Shown here piece by piece: positions 9,104 to 63,313 of a stretch of DNA of 64,000 bases. The translations under genes were made by a program, and so were the position numbers. Position 1 is the first letter of the stretch; every line of letters starts with the position of its first letter. The notes beneath the pieces are model-generated. The model had not been told where the DNA came from. It saw nothing but the letters and a program-made list of their open reading frames with translations, and ran no database searches. Source of the stretch: a virus; IMG/VR virus record IMGVR_UViG_3300045988_130630. One strand, written 5' to 3'.

Positions 9104-10140
9104 CCATTGGTAATCGCCACTTGTTCTATAATAACTATTCATATCAGTTCCGCATAATGGACGAGGACATAATTTACCAGTCACATCATAGTGGCGAATA
9201 ACGTGGTCCGCAGGTATATTGTATTTCTACATTAATTGTTTTACTAATTGTATTGTATTTTCTAATGCTCTTGGATCAAAATACCAATCAGTATCACTAG
9301 CTACAATATTAGATTTGTTTATTTTACAAGGTCTTACTTCAATTCCAATAGAATTAGCATTTCTACATTCAGGATGTTTATACCCTTTTCTTGTGCCACA
9401 GTGCCAAGCAATATCTTCATCTTTAACACTACGATAAATAATATCTTTTTCATCAACGCAATAATGAGCTGATGATTTAGCAACAGGATTTTTAAAATAA
9501 TTACTAATATTTTTTGCCGTCCCCAAAGAACCAAAATAATGTATTACAATATATTTTATTTTTCTATTATTACCTTTTTGATAATTAGATGTTGTTAAAT
9601 TATCTACAATTTTCATATCTTCACCTTTTCCTATAAATTGATCGTATATTTCAACCCCATAATACAATCTCTACTATTGGATTTTTAAACTCTAATCTTT
9701 TGGTCGCTCAAACTATGTTAAGATTATATTTGAAGCAGTCTATATATCTTTACAATTTATTAAAGTATTCCAAACGGTAGGATAATATGTAGAAAGTTGA
9801 TAAATTAAAAATTCAAGTTGTGTATTTAAGTTTCCTATTGAAGTATTCTTCTTTTTTGTAAAATCATATAACTGTTTTTTAAGGCTCCAATAGGTCCATT
9901 GAGCTAAACCATACCCAGCTTTATCATAAATAAAATTAGTATATTTACCATTATCTACTTGTTTTGTATACTATTCATCATTTAATCCAAGTGTCTTTTC
10001 AAAACTATTTTGAAGATTTCTTGGATTAAAATTTGATTCAGCTTTTAAGTTTCCCATTAGTCCGGCCGTTCCATAAGGGTTTTTTATTTGTTTATACAAA
10101 TAATTCCAAACTATTTCAATGTTAGTCATATTATCCTCCT
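9104..10140 (-). CDS. endolysin: lysozyme-like N-domain plus N-acetylmuramoyl-L-alanine amidase (Amidase_2), with 7 in-frame TAG codons
   Basis: Translating the minus strand from ATG at about 10140 gives MTNIEIVWNY...GTAGLMGNLKAESNFNP...GYGLAQWTYW (lysozyme-like). This continues into IVIHYFGS...SAHYCVD...AWHCG...NSIGIEV and HVIRHYDVTGKLCPRP...GDYQW (Amidase_2). The reading frame is continuous only through TAG codons, including a tandem TAG-TAG at about 9686-9691 and one at 9227. The terminal codon is also TAG. Confidence 0.6.
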
Positions 10141-10154
10141 TTCTATAAAATAAA

Positions 10155-10190
10155 AAAAGAAAGAGAAGAAGTAAATCTTCTCTTTCTTAT
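10155..10190 (-). terminator. rho-independent terminator after phoH
   Basis: aagaaagagaagaagtaaatcttctctttctt hairpin plus T-run. Confidence 0.55.
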
Positions 10191-10192
10191 AA

Positions 10193-11455
10193 TTACATAT
10201 GTTCAGCTAATGCCGCAATTTTAGAACGATGAATTTGTTTTAATTCAATTTCACCATATACATCTGATCCTCTAAATACTTTAGAAGCACGACGCATACC
10301 ATTATTGGCTCCAGCAAAAGCAATATCATCAACTTGGGTTTTATCATCGCCATCAATGATACAAATACCATCTTCACCAATACGCTGCAAGGTCAATTTC
10401 ATAAGCGAAATATCCATATTTTGTGCTTCAGAAATATAAATACCTGCTTTCATTCCAGTAGTGTCATAACCACGGATATCACTTAATGGTAAAAGAACTA
10501 ATTGTTCGTTTTCAATCATGCGCTCAACTGCTAAGCGACCACCAAATTTACTAATTAAAAGATTGCCAATTTGGCTATCAAGTAATTTTTCATCTCGAGT
10601 GCCAGGATAAAAACCTAATTTCGCGGAATTTTTAGTGGCAATTGTATTACAAAATACAATGATTTTATCAATGCGCCCACGTTCAAATTGATTCATTAAA
10701 AATGCTAAACTTAAATAAGTTTTACCTGAACCCGCAGGGCCACGAACCATAGTAATAGTATTATTAATAAGACTATCTGCGAATAAAGCTTGATAAGGGT
10801 CATCTTTCATAGGTTTTACTTTTCCAAATTGAGTAGAATCAAAATTACCAAATGAAATAGGGCGATAACCATCACCAGTATAACATACTTTATCAACGAT
10901 ATTATTATCTTTATCTTTTATAATTAAATATTCATTAATATGTAAATTATAAACATTTTCATATTGGTTAGAATAAAAATCAGCCATTTCCGCATTTGAC
11001 ATTGTAATTTCCACATATCCTTTATATTCATCAATTAATTCTTCATCTATGCTTTGAATATAATCTTTGTCAAAGAAAAGATTTGCCATTGCTTTTAATG
11101 ATAAATCATTAGTGATAAATATGGTATTTGGATGGGCTAATTTAAATTCAATTGCGGTAGATAAAATTTTACTATCATCAGTAATTGGAAGGTTAGAATC
11201 TTCAATTATTTTTAATCCATCTAATTTAAATAGTTGGATAATATAATTATCAGGGTTTTCATTCAATTTATGTAATACTTTACGAGCTGAATATTTAACA
11301 TCAGCATCTTTATTTGATGATGTTTTTATATTTTCTAACTCTTTTAAAGTAATAGAAGATATAACAGGTGTATATTCTTCCTCTTGGAGAAATGTATCAA
11401 CCGCCATCAGCAAACTACAAGTATCATAAAATTTATACATCTTCGTACTCATCAT
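10193..11455 (-). CDS. phoH: PhoH-like ATPase with N-terminal PIN domain
   Basis: Walker A motif GPAGSGKT. PhoH-family C-terminal region. N-terminal PIN-like acidic residues. 420 aa. A terminator hairpin follows at 10155-10190. Confidence 0.8.
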   Translation of the reverse strand: MMSTKMYKFYDTCSLLMAVDTFLQEEEYTPVISSITLKELENIKTSSNKDADVKYSARKVLHKLNENPDNYIIQLFKLDGLKIIEDSNLPITDDSKILSTAIEFKLAHPNTIFITNDLSLKAMANLFFDKDYIQSIDEELIDEYKGYVEITMSNAEMADFYSNQYENVYNLHINEYLIIKDKDNNIVDKVCYTGDGYRPISFGNFDSTQFGKVKPMKDDPYQALFADSLINNTITMVRGPAGSGKTYLSLAFLMNQFERGRIDKIIVFCNTIATKNSAKLGFYPGTRDEKLLDSQIGNLLISKFGGRLAVERMIENEQLVLLPLSDIRGYDTTGMKAGIYISEAQNMDISLMKLTLQRIGEDGICIIDGDDKTQVDDIAFAGANNGMRRASKVFRGSDVYGEIELKQIHRSKIAALAEHM

Positions 11456-11747
11456 CTTCTTCCTCTTCTATGTTTGGTATAGCAAATCCGACTGCGTGAA
11501 TTGAAGTCTTTGTATCGGTTGCTAATTTTTCGATTTGGGAATTATACTCTGCTATTTTTAGAGTTAATTTTCCCTTTACCAATTCGAGAAAAGTTGTCAA
11601 TAAACTAACTAAACTATCTCCTATTGGGTATAAAAATGCGATAAATATTATTCCGAATATAAATGTTAAAATAAATATTCACCCTTTCATTAGGGATTTG
11701 AAGATTTTTACCTCTTAACATTTATAAAAATTTATATATTTTTATTT

Positions 11748-61535: not shown

Positions 61536-61536
61536 A

Positions 61537-62394
61537 TTAAGTAGTTAAAAACGCATTATAACCTTTTGATTTTAAATCGTTAATTACTTTTATAGCATTT
61601 GCTTTGACAGAAAAAGCACCGACTTGAACTTTATAATACTTGCCAATCTTACGAATATAAGCATTTTTATAACCTGCTCCAATAGTATCAGGTAATGCTT
61701 TAATTTTCAATAAGAAAGCATCAGCATTAGATTTAGATCCAAAAGCACCAAGTTGAACACGATAAATAATTTGCGGTTTGAGATAAATAGCCATTACATT
61801 ATCGACTGCGCGGTTGCCCCAATCTTTGGTGATACAAGTTCCATTATGAAGAACTTTTGTGCTACCACCGCCATCAAGGTTAATTGCATAATCAACTTTT
61901 AATGCTAAAAGTAAATTCTACATTTCCGCGAATGCCATACCTGGCTTCTCAATAGCAATTAAATAAATATTAAATTTATTATATGCTAATACTGTTCTAC
62001 GGGCTTTATAATTTAACTCTTTAGCATAAGTAATTTGAGCTTTTTTACCAGCTTTAATTAATACTGGATAACCACTAACAAAATCTTCAAACTTTTCTGT
62101 TCCAATTATACCGTATTTCAATTCACCATTAATGATACCAAAGCCTTCTTGATAAGAAGAAGTGGAATTAATGATTATACCATTGTCCATATAATTAAAA
62201 CAAGTACCACCATTATCCATACTAAAAAAACCACCATTAGTTAAAATAGTAGGTTTAACCGCACAACTATCATAGTATTGCTTCAAGGTCTAGCGCGGTT
62301 GAGCGCATAACGCCATATCTAACTTACTAATTTCTTCTTTTGGAATTTCAATAATTTTTACATATGAATAATTGCTTGGAGAATATATTTTCAT
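61537..62394 (-). CDS. phosphodiester-glycosidase-like (NAGPA-type, DGGGS motif) plus SPOR-domain protein (2 in-frame TAG)
   Basis: MKIYSPSNYSYV...AQPR*TLKQYYDS...FAEM*NLLLALKVDYAINLDGGGSTKV... joins ORF 61537-61794, which has two SPOR repeats (YRVQLGAFGSKSNA; YKVQVGAFSVKANA). Confidence 0.45.
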
Positions 62395-62459
62395 CAAATC
62401 ACCTTCCTTAATATTTTTAAGGTTTCAATGAGTCTTATTAATGAAATATACCCTCGATT

Positions 62460-62530
62460 GGCACGGCTACTGAGATTCGAACTCAGATTATGACAGCTTA
62501 TGGAGTTAAATATAAGATTTGAACTTATAT
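62460..62530 (-). tRNA. two abutting tRNA 3'-half-like sequences (no 5' partners identified)
   Basis: ...TATAAG TTCAAAT CTTATA TTTAACT CCA, followed by TAAGC TGTCATAAT CTGAG TTCGAAT CTCAG TAGCCGT G CCA. Confidence 0.3.
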
Positions 62531-62710
62531 CTTGAGCCATTCTTCATTTGGAATATTTTTTATATCACTTTTTCTATAAGGTAAATTATAACTTTTACAC
62601 CATTTTCTAATGGCATTATCACTCACGTTATATTTTTTTCCAACCTAAAGAAAAGAATTATTTCTAATATCTTCTTTTAATTCTTCTCTATTTGGTCTTT
62701 CTACTTTTCT

Positions 62711-63313
62711 CTATGCTAAATTTGCACAATCCACACAATATAAACTATCAGTTTTAATTTTCTTACCACATTTAGAACAAAAATATGAGATATTTTTACT
62801 TAATTTATTTTTTGCTAAAAATAAAGAATCTCTAATGGGATAAGTTTCATTTTCTAAAACTTTCATTTGTCCTAAATTAATAGCGCTAATAGTTTTTTGA
62901 GATACGTTAAATTTTTTACCTATTTCTTCTTCTGACAATAAACTATTTTTTAACAAATCTATTATTTCAAATAAATCTTTTTCTGAAATTTTAGAATTTA
63001 TTTGGTGAGAATCCTATCCACCAGTAGTTAAATTATATCCTTTTTTTGGATCAGTAGAGTTAAACAAAGAAATATAATATTTTTCTTTATTATTTAACTC
63101 ACTTTTTAAACATTCTTCTAAAACTTCAAACTAAAAATTTTCAATTCCATATTTTCTTATAGCCTTATACAATGGATTATTATATTGATTACTATTTTCA
63201 TTGAAAGGGCGACATCTATGAGCTGTCCATCTATAAGAAATATTGATACTCTATCCAATATAGACTTTATTATTAAGTTTATTAGTAATTTTATAAATTC
63301 CAATCATATTTTT
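62711..63313 (-). CDS. GIY-YIG homing endonuclease (3 in-frame TAG) with C-terminal HTH/Zn-ribbon
   Basis: GGAGTG RBS then MIGIYKITNKLNNKVYIG*SINISYRWTAHR (GIY-x10-YIG, Arg). The frame continues through TAGs to ORF 62711-62956 (HTH IGKKFNVSQKTISAINLG; CSKCGKK...CVDCA). Confidence 0.55.

What the first reader, a model, noticed from the sequence alone, without database searches (positions are those of the whole stretch)
9104..63313. TAG (amber) stop-codon reassignment with a phage-encoded CUA-anticodon tRNA
At least 15 genes are intact only if in-frame TAG codons are translated. Per-gene counts, verified by hand translation:
- endolysin: 7 internal TAGs, including a tandem TAG-TAG, plus a terminal TAG
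- radical SAM gene: 3
- Cys-rich protein: 2
- tail-fibre gene 46667-48694: at least 8
- fibre gene 42149-43741: 4
- homing-endonuclease paralogs: 1 to 5
- GIY-YIG gene: 3

What the sequence shows about usage:
- The same genes and their neighbours terminate with TAA, and TGA ends ORF 13577-13885, so TAG alone is affected.
- Replication genes (gyrase, RNase H, PhoH, MVP, TROVE) contain no TAG.
- A class I tRNA with anticodon 5'-CUA-3' sits at 59478-59550. Its G73 and U35 are compatible with a Gln-type suppressor.

This is the pattern reported for code-15-type recoded phages, in which lysis and structural genes are recoded. In those phages translation of late genes depends on the phage suppressor tRNA. 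The extreme TAG density in the endolysin would fit use of recoding as a lysis timer.
Basis: partly seen in the sequence, partly recalled or inferred. Interest (0 to 1): 0.9.

Follow-up and report, generated by a model that had tools for sequence, protein, structure and literature searches.

The report
Gut phage reads TAG as glutamine
This ~195 kb gut phage writes its tail-fibre, lysis and homing-endonuclease genes with TAG as a glutamine codon and carries its own UAG-reading tRNA followed by a self-cleaving ribozyme; this is a clear new example of a code change already described in gut phages.

Summary
Treating TAG as sense raises coding density from 0.78 to 0.91; treating TGA as sense gains nothing. 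Pfam domains run straight through in-frame TAGs. All 81 ORFs taken as genes with TAG as sense end in TAA or TGA. A cloverleaf tRNA with anticodon CUA sits at 59479-59550(-).

TAG means glutamine. Across 44 related loci, 33 of 58 site-level exchanges involving TAG are with CAA or CAG, and none are with Ser or Leu codons.

TAG is 1 of 200 Gln codons in replication and RNA-repair genes. It is 26-33% in the endolysin, tail-fibre and homing-endonuclease genes.

It is supported by compensatory base changes.

Among near-identical phages, the tRNA body occurs as three unrelated CUA alleles, exactly replaced between conserved flanks.

- The endolysin has 8 internal TAGs and ends in TAA.
- The GIY-YIG gene at 62525-63307 has 5 TAGs.
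- The endolysin is not more TAG-biased than the fibre genes.

Everything central matches published code-15 phages (Borges et al.; Kienbeck et al.). This is a new member of a known kind. The lysis-timer function stays inferred.

The parts
59479..59550 (-). Suppressor tRNA, anticodon CUA (allele 'type A'). 72 nt, class I, with an unpaired C1/U72, G73, G2:C71, G10 and anticodon loop CUCUAAA.
   Evidence: ARAGORN. Rfam tRNA 49.8 bits. Cloverleaf minimum-free-energy fold.
59425..59478 (-). C74 (59478) followed by a minimal HDV-like (theta) ribozyme, 59477-59425. Helices: P1 GGUGCUA/UAGCACU with G1.U; P2 AAACAAA/UUUGUUU; P3 CC/GG; L3 UCCUCGC; P1.1 GG; J4/2 CUAA. The predicted cut between C74 and G1 would create the tRNA 3' end.
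   Evidence: Rfam RF02682 26.1 bits over the full model, E = 0.0012 locally, below the gathering score. 10 of 18 pairs show compensatory changes in three independent sequence groups, reached by 0 of 500 shuffles. Conserved in all relatives.
8828..10129 (-). Endolysin (Phage_lysozyme2 + Amidase_2). 8 in-frame TAGs including a tandem TAG-TAG at codons 152-153. Stop codon is TAA.
11748..15137 (-). Block upstream of PhoH, 9 in-frame TAGs in all. Genes: 11748-12230 (2 TAG), radical SAM/SPASM 12288-13580 (3), 13577-13885 (0, TGA stop), Cys-rich protein 13912-14616 (2), 14631-15137 (2).
41859..58382 (-). Tail-fibre block, immediately downstream of the tRNA array. 33 TAGs in 11 of the 13 fibre genes from 42149 to 58382 counted; the small ORF 41859-42173 carries one more. 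Genes include Mtd_N-type fibres, a fibre with the ALK_LTK glycine-rich domain, and CBM_4_9 and Flg_new repeat proteins. Examples: 47189-48694 has 10 TAGs, 56259-58382 has 5, 42149-43750 has 4.
61537..62397 (-). NAGPA + SPOR cell-wall-binding or hydrolase-like protein, 2 TAGs.
62525..63307 (-). GIY-YIG homing endonuclease, 5 TAGs.
4617..5303 (-). GIY-YIG homing endonuclease between gyrB and RNase H/gyrA, 3 TAGs. A recoded gene embedded among TAG-free replication genes.
24337..27450 (-). Two Zn-ribbon/DUF2726-like endonuclease paralogues, 24337-25080 (2 TAG) and 26659-27450 (5 TAG), inside the TAG-free RNA-repair region.
19909..20649 (+). Third paralogue of the same endonuclease-like family, the only plus-strand gene, 1 TAG.
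440..8219 (-). TAG-free contrast set. DNA ligase, GyrA (1749-4127), RNase H (4093-4617), GyrB (5636-7546) and DUF5662 all end in TAA or TGA and have no in-frame TAG.
15314..37157 (-). TAG-free contrast set. Together with 440-8219, the RNA-repair and nucleotide-metabolism genes have 1 TAG in 200 Gln codons once the endonuclease inserts are excluded. Genes: Band7, Metallophos x3, AAA_33 kinase, NADAR, Macro, RNA ligase, RlaP, cREC_REC, MVP-like, DUF2828/DUF7788, methyltransferase.

Best explanation
The window is part of a ~195 kb gut phage that uses genetic code 15 (UAG = glutamine) for part of its genome.

Shown:
- TAG is a sense codon in about 30 genes: tail fibres, endolysin, a radical-SAM/Cys-rich block and homing endonucleases.
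- Only TAA and TGA end genes.
- TAG is interchangeable with CAA and CAG in relatives.
- Replication and RNA-repair genes avoid in-frame TAG.
- The phage encodes a tRNA with anticodon CUA at the head of the recoded fibre block.
- An HDV-like (theta) ribozyme fold starts one nucleotide after the tRNA's discriminator base.

Inferred:
- Early genes are read correctly by a host that treats UAG as stop.
- The suppressor tRNA is cut out of its transcript by RNase P at the 5' end and by the ribozyme at the 3' end. The ribozyme cut would leave G73-C74 with a cyclic phosphate, which must be healed and completed to CCA.
- The tRNA is charged with Gln by the host GlnRS. It has an unpaired 1:72, G73, G2:C71, G10 and U35.
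- It then competes with release factor 1, so genes with many TAGs are made only once the tRNA is abundant. With 8 to 10 TAGs per gene, yield depends on a high power of the suppression efficiency.
For: - Coding density is 0.78 under code 11, 0.91 with TAG as sense and 0.79 with TGA as sense. All related loci show the same gain, while the two standard-code control loci long enough to test (L007, L008) do not.
- Pfam domains are continuous across TAGs.
- The tRNA-CUA is called by ARAGORN and Rfam and folds as a cloverleaf.
- Gln assignment: among site-level exchanges involving TAG across 44 loci, 22 are with CAA and 11 with CAG, out of 58. The next most frequent is ACT with 5. No Ser or Leu codon appears. 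The first comparison with L001-L003 gave 7 of 8 TAG<->CAA.
- Three verified standard-code endolysin homologues have Q at 6 of 24 TAG-column cells. Gln has the best BLOSUM62 sum (47), ahead of Glu (44), Lys (35) and Arg (29). Ser, Tyr, Leu and Trp are negative.
- Partition of TAG among Gln codons: 1 of 200 in early genes, against 8 of 25 (endolysin), 33 of 127 (fibres) and 16 of 48 (endonucleases). Fisher p ranges from 1e-7 to 1e-14.
- In-frame against out-of-frame TAG in early genes is 1 against 84 and 103.
- Ribozyme: Rfam threading plus compensatory changes in P1 and P2.
- The published descriptions match.
Against: - There is no expression, proteomic or aminoacylation data.
- The host is unknown. 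The only match among the GTDB species-representative genomes is the same phage, binned into a 'Mollicutes' MAG.
- No release-factor, aminoacyl-tRNA synthetase or RF1-inhibitor gene is in this window, so the means of outcompeting RF1 is unknown.
- The tRNA lies in a tRNA array whose timing of expression is unknown.
- The ribozyme scores below Rfam's gathering threshold (26 against 44 bits), and cleavage is untested.
- Homologue columns alone cannot separate Gln from Glu or Lys.
- An unpaired 1:72 could weaken EF-Tu binding.
- PhoH carries TAGs in relatives, so the early/late boundary is not sharp.
Confidence: 0.88

Rival explanations
1. Same machinery, no timer. CAG-to-TAG changes drifted into any gene translated after the suppressor tRNA is present (codon capture in an AT-rich genome). 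The early/late partition would then reflect only the constraint that early genes must be readable without the tRNA. It would not be a device selected to delay lysis.
For: - TAG appears to have replaced CAG. CAG is 47% of Gln codons in early genes but 4-14% in TAG-using genes. In the fibre block, CAG plus TAG comes to about 40%.
- The endolysin is not more TAG-biased than the fibres (p = 0.62).
- TAG and CAA/CAG flip freely between near-identical genomes, as expected for near-neutral synonymous change.
- PhoH gains TAGs in relatives.
Against: - The tandem TAG-TAG and 8 to 10 TAGs per gene are conserved among relatives.
- Homing endonucleases inside early regions are the most recoded class (33% of Gln codons). 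This looks like expression control, as argued in the literature.
- Drift does not explain why no gene ends in TAG.
Confidence: 0.3
2. TAG is decoded as an amino acid other than glutamine (Glu, Lys, Ser, Tyr, Leu, Trp or pyrrolysine), at least in phages that carry the long-arm 'type C' tRNA allele.
For: - ARAGORN labels the tRNA 'Pyl', but only from its anticodon.
- The type C allele in relatives has a class II-like extra arm plus G73, as tRNA-Ser does.
- Columns in standard-code homologues are often E, K or R.
- Kienbeck et al. report some suppressor tRNAs with non-Gln predicted isotypes.
Against: - Codon exchanges are overwhelmingly with CAA and CAG. GAA appears once and AAA/AAG three times. 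TAT appears twice, at least one of these in non-coding tRNA-Tyr DNA, and Ser and Leu never. This also holds within genomes carrying type C: 8 sites with a Gln codon against 2 with only other codons.
- The tRNA lacks the hallmarks of tRNA-Pyl. It has a normal 8-nt D loop, two bases between the acceptor and D stems, and a 5-bp anticodon stem.
- Every ORF of 170 aa or more was scanned, and none hit a pyl-gene family.
- G73 argues against Leu and Tyr identity (my own knowledge of E. coli identity rules).
Confidence: 0.05
3. The in-frame TAGs are pseudogene lesions or assembly errors, or the host itself reads UAG as sense so that no switch exists.
For: None specific. The host is not identified.
Against: - The same TAGs recur in more than 20 independently assembled contigs from different samples.
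- Only TAG is affected.
- Domains are intact.
- If the host read UAG as sense, early genes would not avoid in-frame TAG at 1 against about 90 out of frame.
Confidence: 0.02

Closest known systems
Alternatively coded (code 15, TAG->Gln) gut phages: Lak, crAss-like, and the Jade/Sapphire/Agate/Garnet/Amethyst/Topaz clades (Borges et al., bioRxiv 10.1101/2021.08.26.457843). Proteomic validation in Peters et al., PMC9523058, seen here only as an abstract in search results.
   Same: - Gut origin and low GC (33%).
- TAG as sense, with a phage suppressor tRNA-CUA.
- Structural and lysis genes recoded, in several modules spread over a ~200 kb genome.
- Replication genes in a code-neutral form.
- A recoded homing endonuclease inside early genes.
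- TAG lost as a stop codon.
   Different: - Clade membership was not established, because the terminase is outside the window.
- No release-factor or synthetase 'code-change module' lies next to the lysis gene in this window.
- Here the endolysin is not significantly more recoded than the fibre genes. In the crAss-like set, by contrast, lysis genes stood out.
Theta ribozymes: minimal HDV-like ribozymes at the 3' end of phage tRNAs, enriched next to amber suppressor tRNAs of code-15 phages (Kienbeck et al., bioRxiv 10.1101/2023.06.13.544163).
   Same: - The cleavage-site G1 lies 1 nt after the discriminator base of the tRNA-CUA.
- The fold is a nested double pseudoknot with G1.U, L3 UCCUCGC, a catalytic C opening J4/2 and a near-absent P4.
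- It comes from a gut Caudoviricetes-type phage that uses code 15.
- The same ribozyme is paired with different tRNAs.
   Different: - This exact ribozyme or tRNA sequence was not found in the parts of the paper's supplementary files that are held as text.
- In this window only the suppressor, out of 9 called tRNAs plus a few weaker tRNA-like Rfam hits, has such a ribozyme.
- Self-cleavage was not tested here.
E. coli supE-type amber suppressor (tRNA-Gln with anticodon CUA) and the GlnRS identity set.
   Same: CUA anticodon with U35, G73 discriminator, a weak or unpaired 1:72, G2:C71, G10 and A37. The identity rules come from my own knowledge of the E. coli system.
   Different: - It is not derived from a recognisable tRNA-Gln. 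The phage's own tRNA-Gln(UUG) in L044 is unrelated in sequence.
- Position 3:70 is A:U or C:G rather than G:C, and position 38 is A rather than U.
- One allele in relatives has a long extra arm.

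Membership tests
Code-15 alternatively coded phage | Coding density rises markedly (at least 5-10%) when TAG, and only TAG, is treated as sense. | tested here: met
   Density is 0.78 under code 11, 0.91 with TAG as sense and 0.79 with TGA as sense. Related loci of at least 9 kb gain with TAG as sense, by up to 0.30 (most by 0.05 or more; one gains nothing); standard-code controls do not.
Code-15 alternatively coded phage | In-frame TAGs lie inside conserved protein domains rather than at gene ends. | tested here: met
   Phage_lysozyme2, Amidase_2, Radical_SAM, ALK_LTK_GRD, GIY-YIG and NAGPA envelopes span TAGs. TAGs are not enriched near C-termini.
Code-15 alternatively coded phage | TAG corresponds to glutamine. 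| tested here: met
   33 of 58 site-level exchanges are with CAA or CAG, and none with Ser or Leu codons. Q is the best-scoring residue in verified standard-code homologues, though only just ahead of E. There is no proteomic proof.
Code-15 alternatively coded phage | The phage encodes a suppressor tRNA with anticodon CUA. | tested here: met
   It is present at the same position in all 12 related contigs that cover it.
Code-15 alternatively coded phage | Recoding is concentrated in late (structural and lysis) genes; early genes are code-neutral. | tested here: met
   1 of 200 against 26-33% of Gln codons, p from 1e-7 to 1e-14. 'Early' and 'late' are assigned from gene function, not from expression data.
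Code-15 alternatively coded phage | The host uses the standard code, and a switch occurs during infection. | not testable with these tools
   The host is not identified. There is only the indirect argument from TAG avoidance in early genes.
Theta (minimal HDV-like) ribozyme, tRNA-associated | HDV-like nested fold: P1 with a G1.U wobble, P2, P3, P1.1, a C-rich L3 and a reduced P4. | tested here: met
   Threaded onto RF02682 over the full model. 94% of cells are paired. 5 of 7 P1 pairs and 5 of 7 P2 pairs show compensatory changes, reached by 0 of 500 shuffles. The core is invariant. Only three independent sequence groups were available.
Theta (minimal HDV-like) ribozyme, tRNA-associated | A catalytic cytosine at the first position of J4/2. 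| tested here: met
   GCUAA aligns with the model's GCUAA, and the C is invariant in all five sequences.
Theta (minimal HDV-like) ribozyme, tRNA-associated | The cleavage site lies within +/-5 nt of a tRNA 3' end. | tested here: met
   G73 is at 59479, C74 at 59478 and G1 at 59477.
Theta (minimal HDV-like) ribozyme, tRNA-associated | Reaches the curated score of a ribozyme family; self-cleaves. | tested here: inconclusive
   RF02682 scores 26.1 bits against a gathering score of 44. That model has a long P4 which is absent here. Cleavage needs an experiment.
tRNA-Gln identity (GlnRS type) | G73, a weak or unpaired 1:72, G2:C71, G3:C70, G10, U35, A37 and U38 (E. coli rules, from my own knowledge). 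| tested here: inconclusive
   G73, unpaired 1:72, G2:C71, G10, U35 and A37 are present in all three alleles. 3:70 and 38 differ. The host's rules are unknown, and no isotype-specific model was available.
tRNA-Pyl | A short D loop, one base between the acceptor and D stems, a 6-bp anticodon stem and a 3-nt variable loop, with pylS/pylBCD genes. | tested here: not met
   The tRNA has an 8-nt D loop, two linker bases, a 5-bp anticodon stem and a 4-nt variable loop. No ORF of 170 aa or more in the window matched a pyl-gene family.
Named clade (Jade, Sapphire and others) of Borges et al. | Placement in the large-terminase phylogeny. | not tested
   The terminase is not in the window.

The most novel reading that the evidence does not exclude
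The suppressor tRNA may be a swappable cassette under diversifying selection. Within one phage species (neighbouring genes 95-99% identical), the 72-89 nt tRNA body occurs as three unrelated CUA alleles, one with a class II-like extra arm.

- The replacement is exact to the nucleotide, between the end of an upstream ORF and the conserved theta ribozyme.
- Flanking SNPs, including one inside the ribozyme's L3, are shuffled across alleles.
- A GIY-YIG endonuclease is inserted right next to the tRNA in some genomes.
- All three alleles keep the same anticodon loop (CUCUAAA), an unpaired 1:72, G73, G2:C71 and G10.

The novel reading is that these alleles are kept or exchanged because they escape host tRNA-targeting defences or fit different hosts' GlnRS. 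In the extreme case they might insert different amino acids.
Probability: 0.2. Interest if true: 0.7.

Novelty: new member of a known kind. Interest (0 to 1): 0.4.

Why it matters
The window is a clean, internally consistent case of partial genetic-code change in a large gut phage. A standard gene caller run with code 11 would fragment about a third of its genes.

The window contains all the parts that current models invoke:
- TAG-free early genes
- recoded fibre, lysis and homing-endonuclease genes
- a suppressor tRNA
- a self-cleaving ribozyme that could release it

That makes it a good candidate for experiments on how the switch works. The one observation I did not find described is that near-identical genomes carry three different suppressor tRNA alleles, exactly swapped in front of the same ribozyme. 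It suggests that the tRNA itself is a target of selection. It also offers a natural experiment: the three alleles could be compared for charging and suppression efficiency.

Tried and rejected
- GenBank phage collection: there was no match for a fibre protein or for the tRNA, so there is no named cultured relative.
- Exact 32-nt tRNA pattern in IMG/VR: no hit. The only other type A copy (L044) differs by an indel and SNPs. Relatives were reached through proteins instead.
- P0001 (95% identical endolysin) has Q at all eight TAG columns. I rejected this as evidence because the protein does not translate from its own DNA under code 11, so it was called with code 15 and the argument is circular.
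- Loose pattern CTCTAAA-N45-75-CCTCCTCG in IMG/VR: 120 chance hits and no tRNA-CUA among them. The scan was wasted.
- The two extra hits of the 17-nt ribozyme core (L049, L050) are GC-rich chance matches with no tRNA.
- Scan of the GTDB species-representative genomes with the type C tRNA half, intended to find a host or donor tRNA: it returned only the same phage, binned as a 'Mollicutes' MAG.
- The 'tRNA-SeC(tca)' that ARAGORN calls in L042 and L043 lies inside the fibre ORF and does not fold as a tRNA. It is a false positive, so there is no TGA suppressor.
- Pyrrolysine was rejected on tRNA architecture and the absence of pyl-family hits among the ORFs scanned.
- Searching the theta-ribozyme paper's supplementary text for this ribozyme and these tRNAs found nothing. 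The files may be truncated.
- PDB alignments of the amidase domain put A or S at the one TAG column covered, which is uninformative.

Full report
**What is there**

The window is 33% GC and almost every gene is on the minus strand.

ARAGORN finds nine tRNAs, all on the minus strand, including one with anticodon CTA at 59478-59550. Rfam's tRNA model matches 59479-59550 at 49.8 bits. The 72-nt sequence folds into a standard cloverleaf.

I chose non-overlapping ORFs of at least 50 aa greedily and compared codes. Coding density is 0.78 with the standard code, 0.91 when TAG is read through and 0.79 when TGA is read through. Median ORF length rises from 93 to 131 aa with TAG as sense. So TAG alone is affected.

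**The TAGs are inside genes**

Translating TAG as X and scanning Pfam gives the following:
- The endolysin (8828-10129) matches Phage_lysozyme2 over the whole profile (residues 3-165, spanning six TAGs) and Amidase_2 (188-324, spanning one).
- Radical_SAM/SPASM, the ALK_LTK glycine-rich domain of a fibre protein, two GIY-YIG domains and NAGPA also span TAGs.

With TAG as sense, the 81 ORFs taken as genes end in 64 TAA and 17 TGA. They contain 81 in-frame TAGs. Only five of these lie in the last 15 codons, which is about the number a uniform spread predicts. There is therefore no sign that TAG still terminates any gene.

- The endolysin has eight internal TAGs, including the tandem pair at codons 152-153, and stops at TAA 8828-8830.
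- The 'terminal TAG' is most likely codon 343 (9101-9103). The ORF continues for 90 codons, and homologues cover that stretch.
- '46667-48694' is two ORFs with 10 and 1 TAGs.
- The GIY-YIG gene at 62525-63307 has five TAGs.
- A second GIY-YIG gene with three TAGs lies at 4617-5303, outside the stated range.

**Which amino acid**

The closest database homologue of the endolysin (P0001, 95% identical) shows Q at every TAG column. Its own DNA does not translate to it under code 11, so it was called with code 15 and the evidence is circular. I used two independent lines instead.

*Codon exchanges between relatives.* I aligned the window's genes codon by codon to 44 related loci: metagenome contigs L001-L006 and IMG/VR contigs L010-L044, with 60-100% protein identity.
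- At the site level, TAG exchanges with CAA at 22 sites and with CAG at 11, out of 58 exchanges in all.
- The next most frequent partner is ACT, at 5 sites.
- No Ser or Leu codon appears.
- TAT appears twice. At least one of these is in DNA that is really the tRNA-Tyr gene.

*Standard-code homologues.* Three endolysin homologues were verified to translate under the standard code (P0004, P0005, P0006).
- They carry ERQQEKAE, ERQHDRRE and ELQQQKKK at the eight TAG columns.
- Gln gives the best BLOSUM62 sum (47), narrowly ahead of Glu (44).
- Ser, Tyr, Leu and Trp are negative.

The codon exchanges are the decisive evidence. The homologue columns only narrow the choice to Gln, Glu or Lys.

**Distribution of TAG**

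I grouped genes by function, using Pfam and PHROGs. TAG as a share of Gln codons:

| Gene group | TAG / Gln codons |
|---|---|
| 26 replication, nucleotide and RNA-repair genes | 1 / 200 |
| PhoH / radical-SAM / Cys-rich block | 9 / 56 |
| Endolysin | 8 / 25 |
| 13 tail-fibre genes | 33 / 127 |
| Five homing-endonuclease-like genes | 16 / 48 |

- Every group differs from the early set, with Fisher p between 5e-3 and 4e-14.
- In the early genes TAG occurs once in frame but 84 and 103 times in the other two frames. The avoidance is therefore selective and not compositional.
- CAG makes up 47% of Gln codons in early genes but only 4-14% in the fibre, lysis and PhoH-block groups (2% in the endonucleases). 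TAG seems to have taken over the CAG positions.
- The endolysin is not more TAG-biased than the fibre block (p = 0.62).
- PhoH is TAG-free here but carries TAG at up to four positions in relatives, three at CAA sites and one at an AAA site.
- The endonuclease genes are recoded even where they sit between TAG-free gyrase genes. Borges et al. described the same thing for an intron endonuclease.

**The tRNA and what follows it**

The tRNA has six acceptor pairs plus an unpaired C1/U72. It also has G73, G2:C71, G10, a normal 8-nt D loop, a 5-bp anticodon stem, the loop CUCUAAA and a 4-nt variable loop. This is not the architecture of tRNA-Pyl, so ARAGORN's 'Pyl' label reflects only the anticodon. 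From my own knowledge of the E. coli system, an unpaired 1:72, G73, G2:C71, G10 and U35 fit the rules for GlnRS recognition. This remains an inference.

One nucleotide after G73 begins a sequence that Rfam threads over the whole HDV-like ribozyme model RF02682. The score is 26.1 bits, E = 0.0012 for the local search, below the gathering score because the model's long P4 is missing here. Its parts are:
- P1: GGUGCUA/UAGCACU, with the G1.U wobble
- P2: AAACAAA/UUUGUUU
- P3: CC/GG
- L3: UCCUCGC
- P1.1: GG
- J4/2: CUAA

A pattern that fixed only the core found two further sequence groups in IMG/VR. On the five distinct sequences:
- 94% of cells pair.
- 10 of 18 pairs show changes on both sides, five in P1 and five in P2.
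- None of 500 shuffles and no slid register comes close.

This is the 'theta ribozyme' arrangement described by Kienbeck et al. They found such ribozymes at tRNA 3' ends in gut phages, with 20% next to amber suppressor tRNAs, and 96% of those phages predicted to use code 15. Cleavage would leave the tRNA ending in G73-C74 with a cyclic phosphate. End-healing and CCA completion are then needed; that step is inferred. In this window, no other copy of the ribozyme core and no other HDV-like Rfam hit was found, next to a tRNA or elsewhere.

**Relatives**

The MVP-like protein and the NAGPA/SPOR protein retrieve IMG/VR contigs of up to 197 kb with 95-100% identity, and more distant relatives down to 60%. 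Nearly all of them gain coding density with TAG as sense, by up to 0.30; three loci of 49% GC carrying standard-code endolysin homologues served as controls, and the two long enough to test gain almost nothing. So the whole group is recoded. A 164 kb contig filed in GTDB as an 'uncultured Mollicutes' MAG is the same phage. The host remains unknown.

**An unexpected polymorphism**

In all twelve related contigs that cover the locus, the tRNA-CUA sits between tRNA-Val and tRNA-Tyr. It comes in three sequences that cannot be aligned outside the anticodon loop and parts of the T arm:
- Type A: the window and L044.
- Type B: three contigs.
- Type C: eight contigs. It is 89 nt, with a 20-nt extra arm.

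The features of the polymorphism are:
- The flanks are 97-100% identical up to the first and last tRNA nucleotide. Upstream is the end of a small ORF, or in L041 and L045 a GIY-YIG endonuclease gene. Downstream is the ribozyme.
- A C/T polymorphism inside the ribozyme's L3 is shared across tRNA types, which implies recombination within a few tens of bases.
- All three alleles share an unpaired pyrimidine-pyrimidine 1:72, G73, G2:C71, G10 and the loop CUCUAAA.
- TAG still exchanges with CAA and CAG within type C genomes, so all three probably insert Gln.
- Types B and C occur only in this phage group in IMG/VR.

Kienbeck et al. note that one ribozyme can be paired with tRNAs of several isotypes. 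I did not find a description of allelic suppressor tRNAs within one phage species.

**How it most likely works**

Shown:
- a partial code-15 genome
- a CUA tRNA
- an HDV-like fold abutting the tRNA
- Gln as the evolutionary meaning of TAG
- TAG-free early genes

Inferred:
- The host terminates at UAG.
- Early genes are translated as written.
- The suppressor tRNA is released by RNase P and the ribozyme, repaired, completed with CCA and charged by GlnRS. It then competes with RF1.
- Proteins with 8 to 10 TAGs appear only when suppression is efficient, because yield falls as the n-th power of the per-codon read-through.

Whether this was selected as a timer or simply reflects CAG-to-TAG drift in genes translated late cannot be decided from sequence.

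**Comparison and verdict**

The central finding matches the published picture of alternatively coded gut phages point by point. The tRNA-ribozyme unit matches the theta-ribozyme description. It is therefore a new, well-documented member of a known kind, not a new mechanism. The suppressor tRNA allele swapping is the only part that may be new. I rate overall interest at about 0.4.

Noticed in passing
L034-L045 (tRNA-CUA locus), window 59479-59550: Near-identical phages carry three unrelated tRNA-CUA alleles: A (72 nt), B (72 nt) and C (89 nt, with a long extra arm). Each is exactly replaced between a conserved upstream ORF end and the conserved ribozyme. All share an unpaired 1:72, G73, G2:C71, G10 and the loop CUCUAAA. 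A SNP in the ribozyme's L3 is shuffled across alleles.
   Followed up: partly
window 39422-39550 (-): RAGATH-33 RNA motif above Rfam's gathering score (126.8 bits against 120.4), in a gene-poor stretch between the PD-(D/E)XK endonuclease gene and the tRNA-Ser pair. Its function is unknown.
   Followed up: no
window 61354-61463 (-), and 33721-35286 (-): A sub-threshold match to the Y RNA-like family YrlA (31.9 bits, E = 0.0055, gathering score 69) lies directly upstream of tRNA-Ile. This could be a phage Ro-Y RNA pair, but it is only a lead.
   Followed up: no
window 15314-37157 (-): A large TAG-free RNA-repair-like gene set:
- RNA ligase (22959-24344)
- RlaP nucleotidyltransferase (27735-28541)
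- cREC_REC cyclic-phosphate-processing receiver domain (29155-29475)
- MVP-like protein (30743-33241)
- AAA_33 kinase
- three Metallophos phosphoesterases
- NADAR, Macro and Band7/flotillin

These genes might heal the cyclic-phosphate end left on the suppressor tRNA by the ribozyme, or counter host anticodon nucleases. This is speculation.
   Followed up: no
window 30743-33241, 15314-16699, 22959-24344, 33721-35286: The MVP-like, Band7, RNA-ligase and DUF2828 genes use CAG almost exclusively for Gln (28:0, 18:3, 8:0 and 9:1 CAG:CAA). Most other genes prefer CAA. This may reflect a different origin or different expression demands.
   Followed up: no
L001 7645-10864 against window 5368-7652; L041 and L045 upstream of tRNA-CUA: Homing-endonuclease content varies between near-identical genomes. 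L001 has an extra GIY-YIG gene that splits gyrB into two called ORFs. L041 and L045 have a GIY-YIG gene inserted immediately upstream of the suppressor tRNA.
   Followed up: partly
window 60797-60880, 63597-63666, 60610-60685 (-): Extra tRNA-like Rfam hits (35.1, 44.2 and 24.5 bits) that ARAGORN does not call. One is 84 nt with an insertion in the anticodon region. Relatives have 'tRNA-???' calls with two-base anticodons at similar positions. These may be degenerate or unusual tRNAs.
   Followed up: partly
L045 (CAMELE010000001.1, 163,874 bp): A contig filed in a GTDB species-representative genome as an 'uncultured Mollicutes bacterium' MAG is this phage (86-96% nucleotide identity, same tRNA array). 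It is probably mis-binned.
   Followed up: yes
window 58695-59243 (-): With TAG read through, the small ORF upstream of tRNA-Tyr runs on through the tRNA-Tyr gene. Its first in-frame TAG lies inside the tRNA. The real end of this gene is unclear.
   Followed up: no
window 13912-14616 (-): A 234-aa protein whose first ~135 residues are almost entirely Cys/Gly/Ser repeats (CSGSCSGGC...), next to a radical SAM/SPASM enzyme. This may be a modified-peptide or structural pair. The only match is to a PHROG of unknown function.
   Followed up: no
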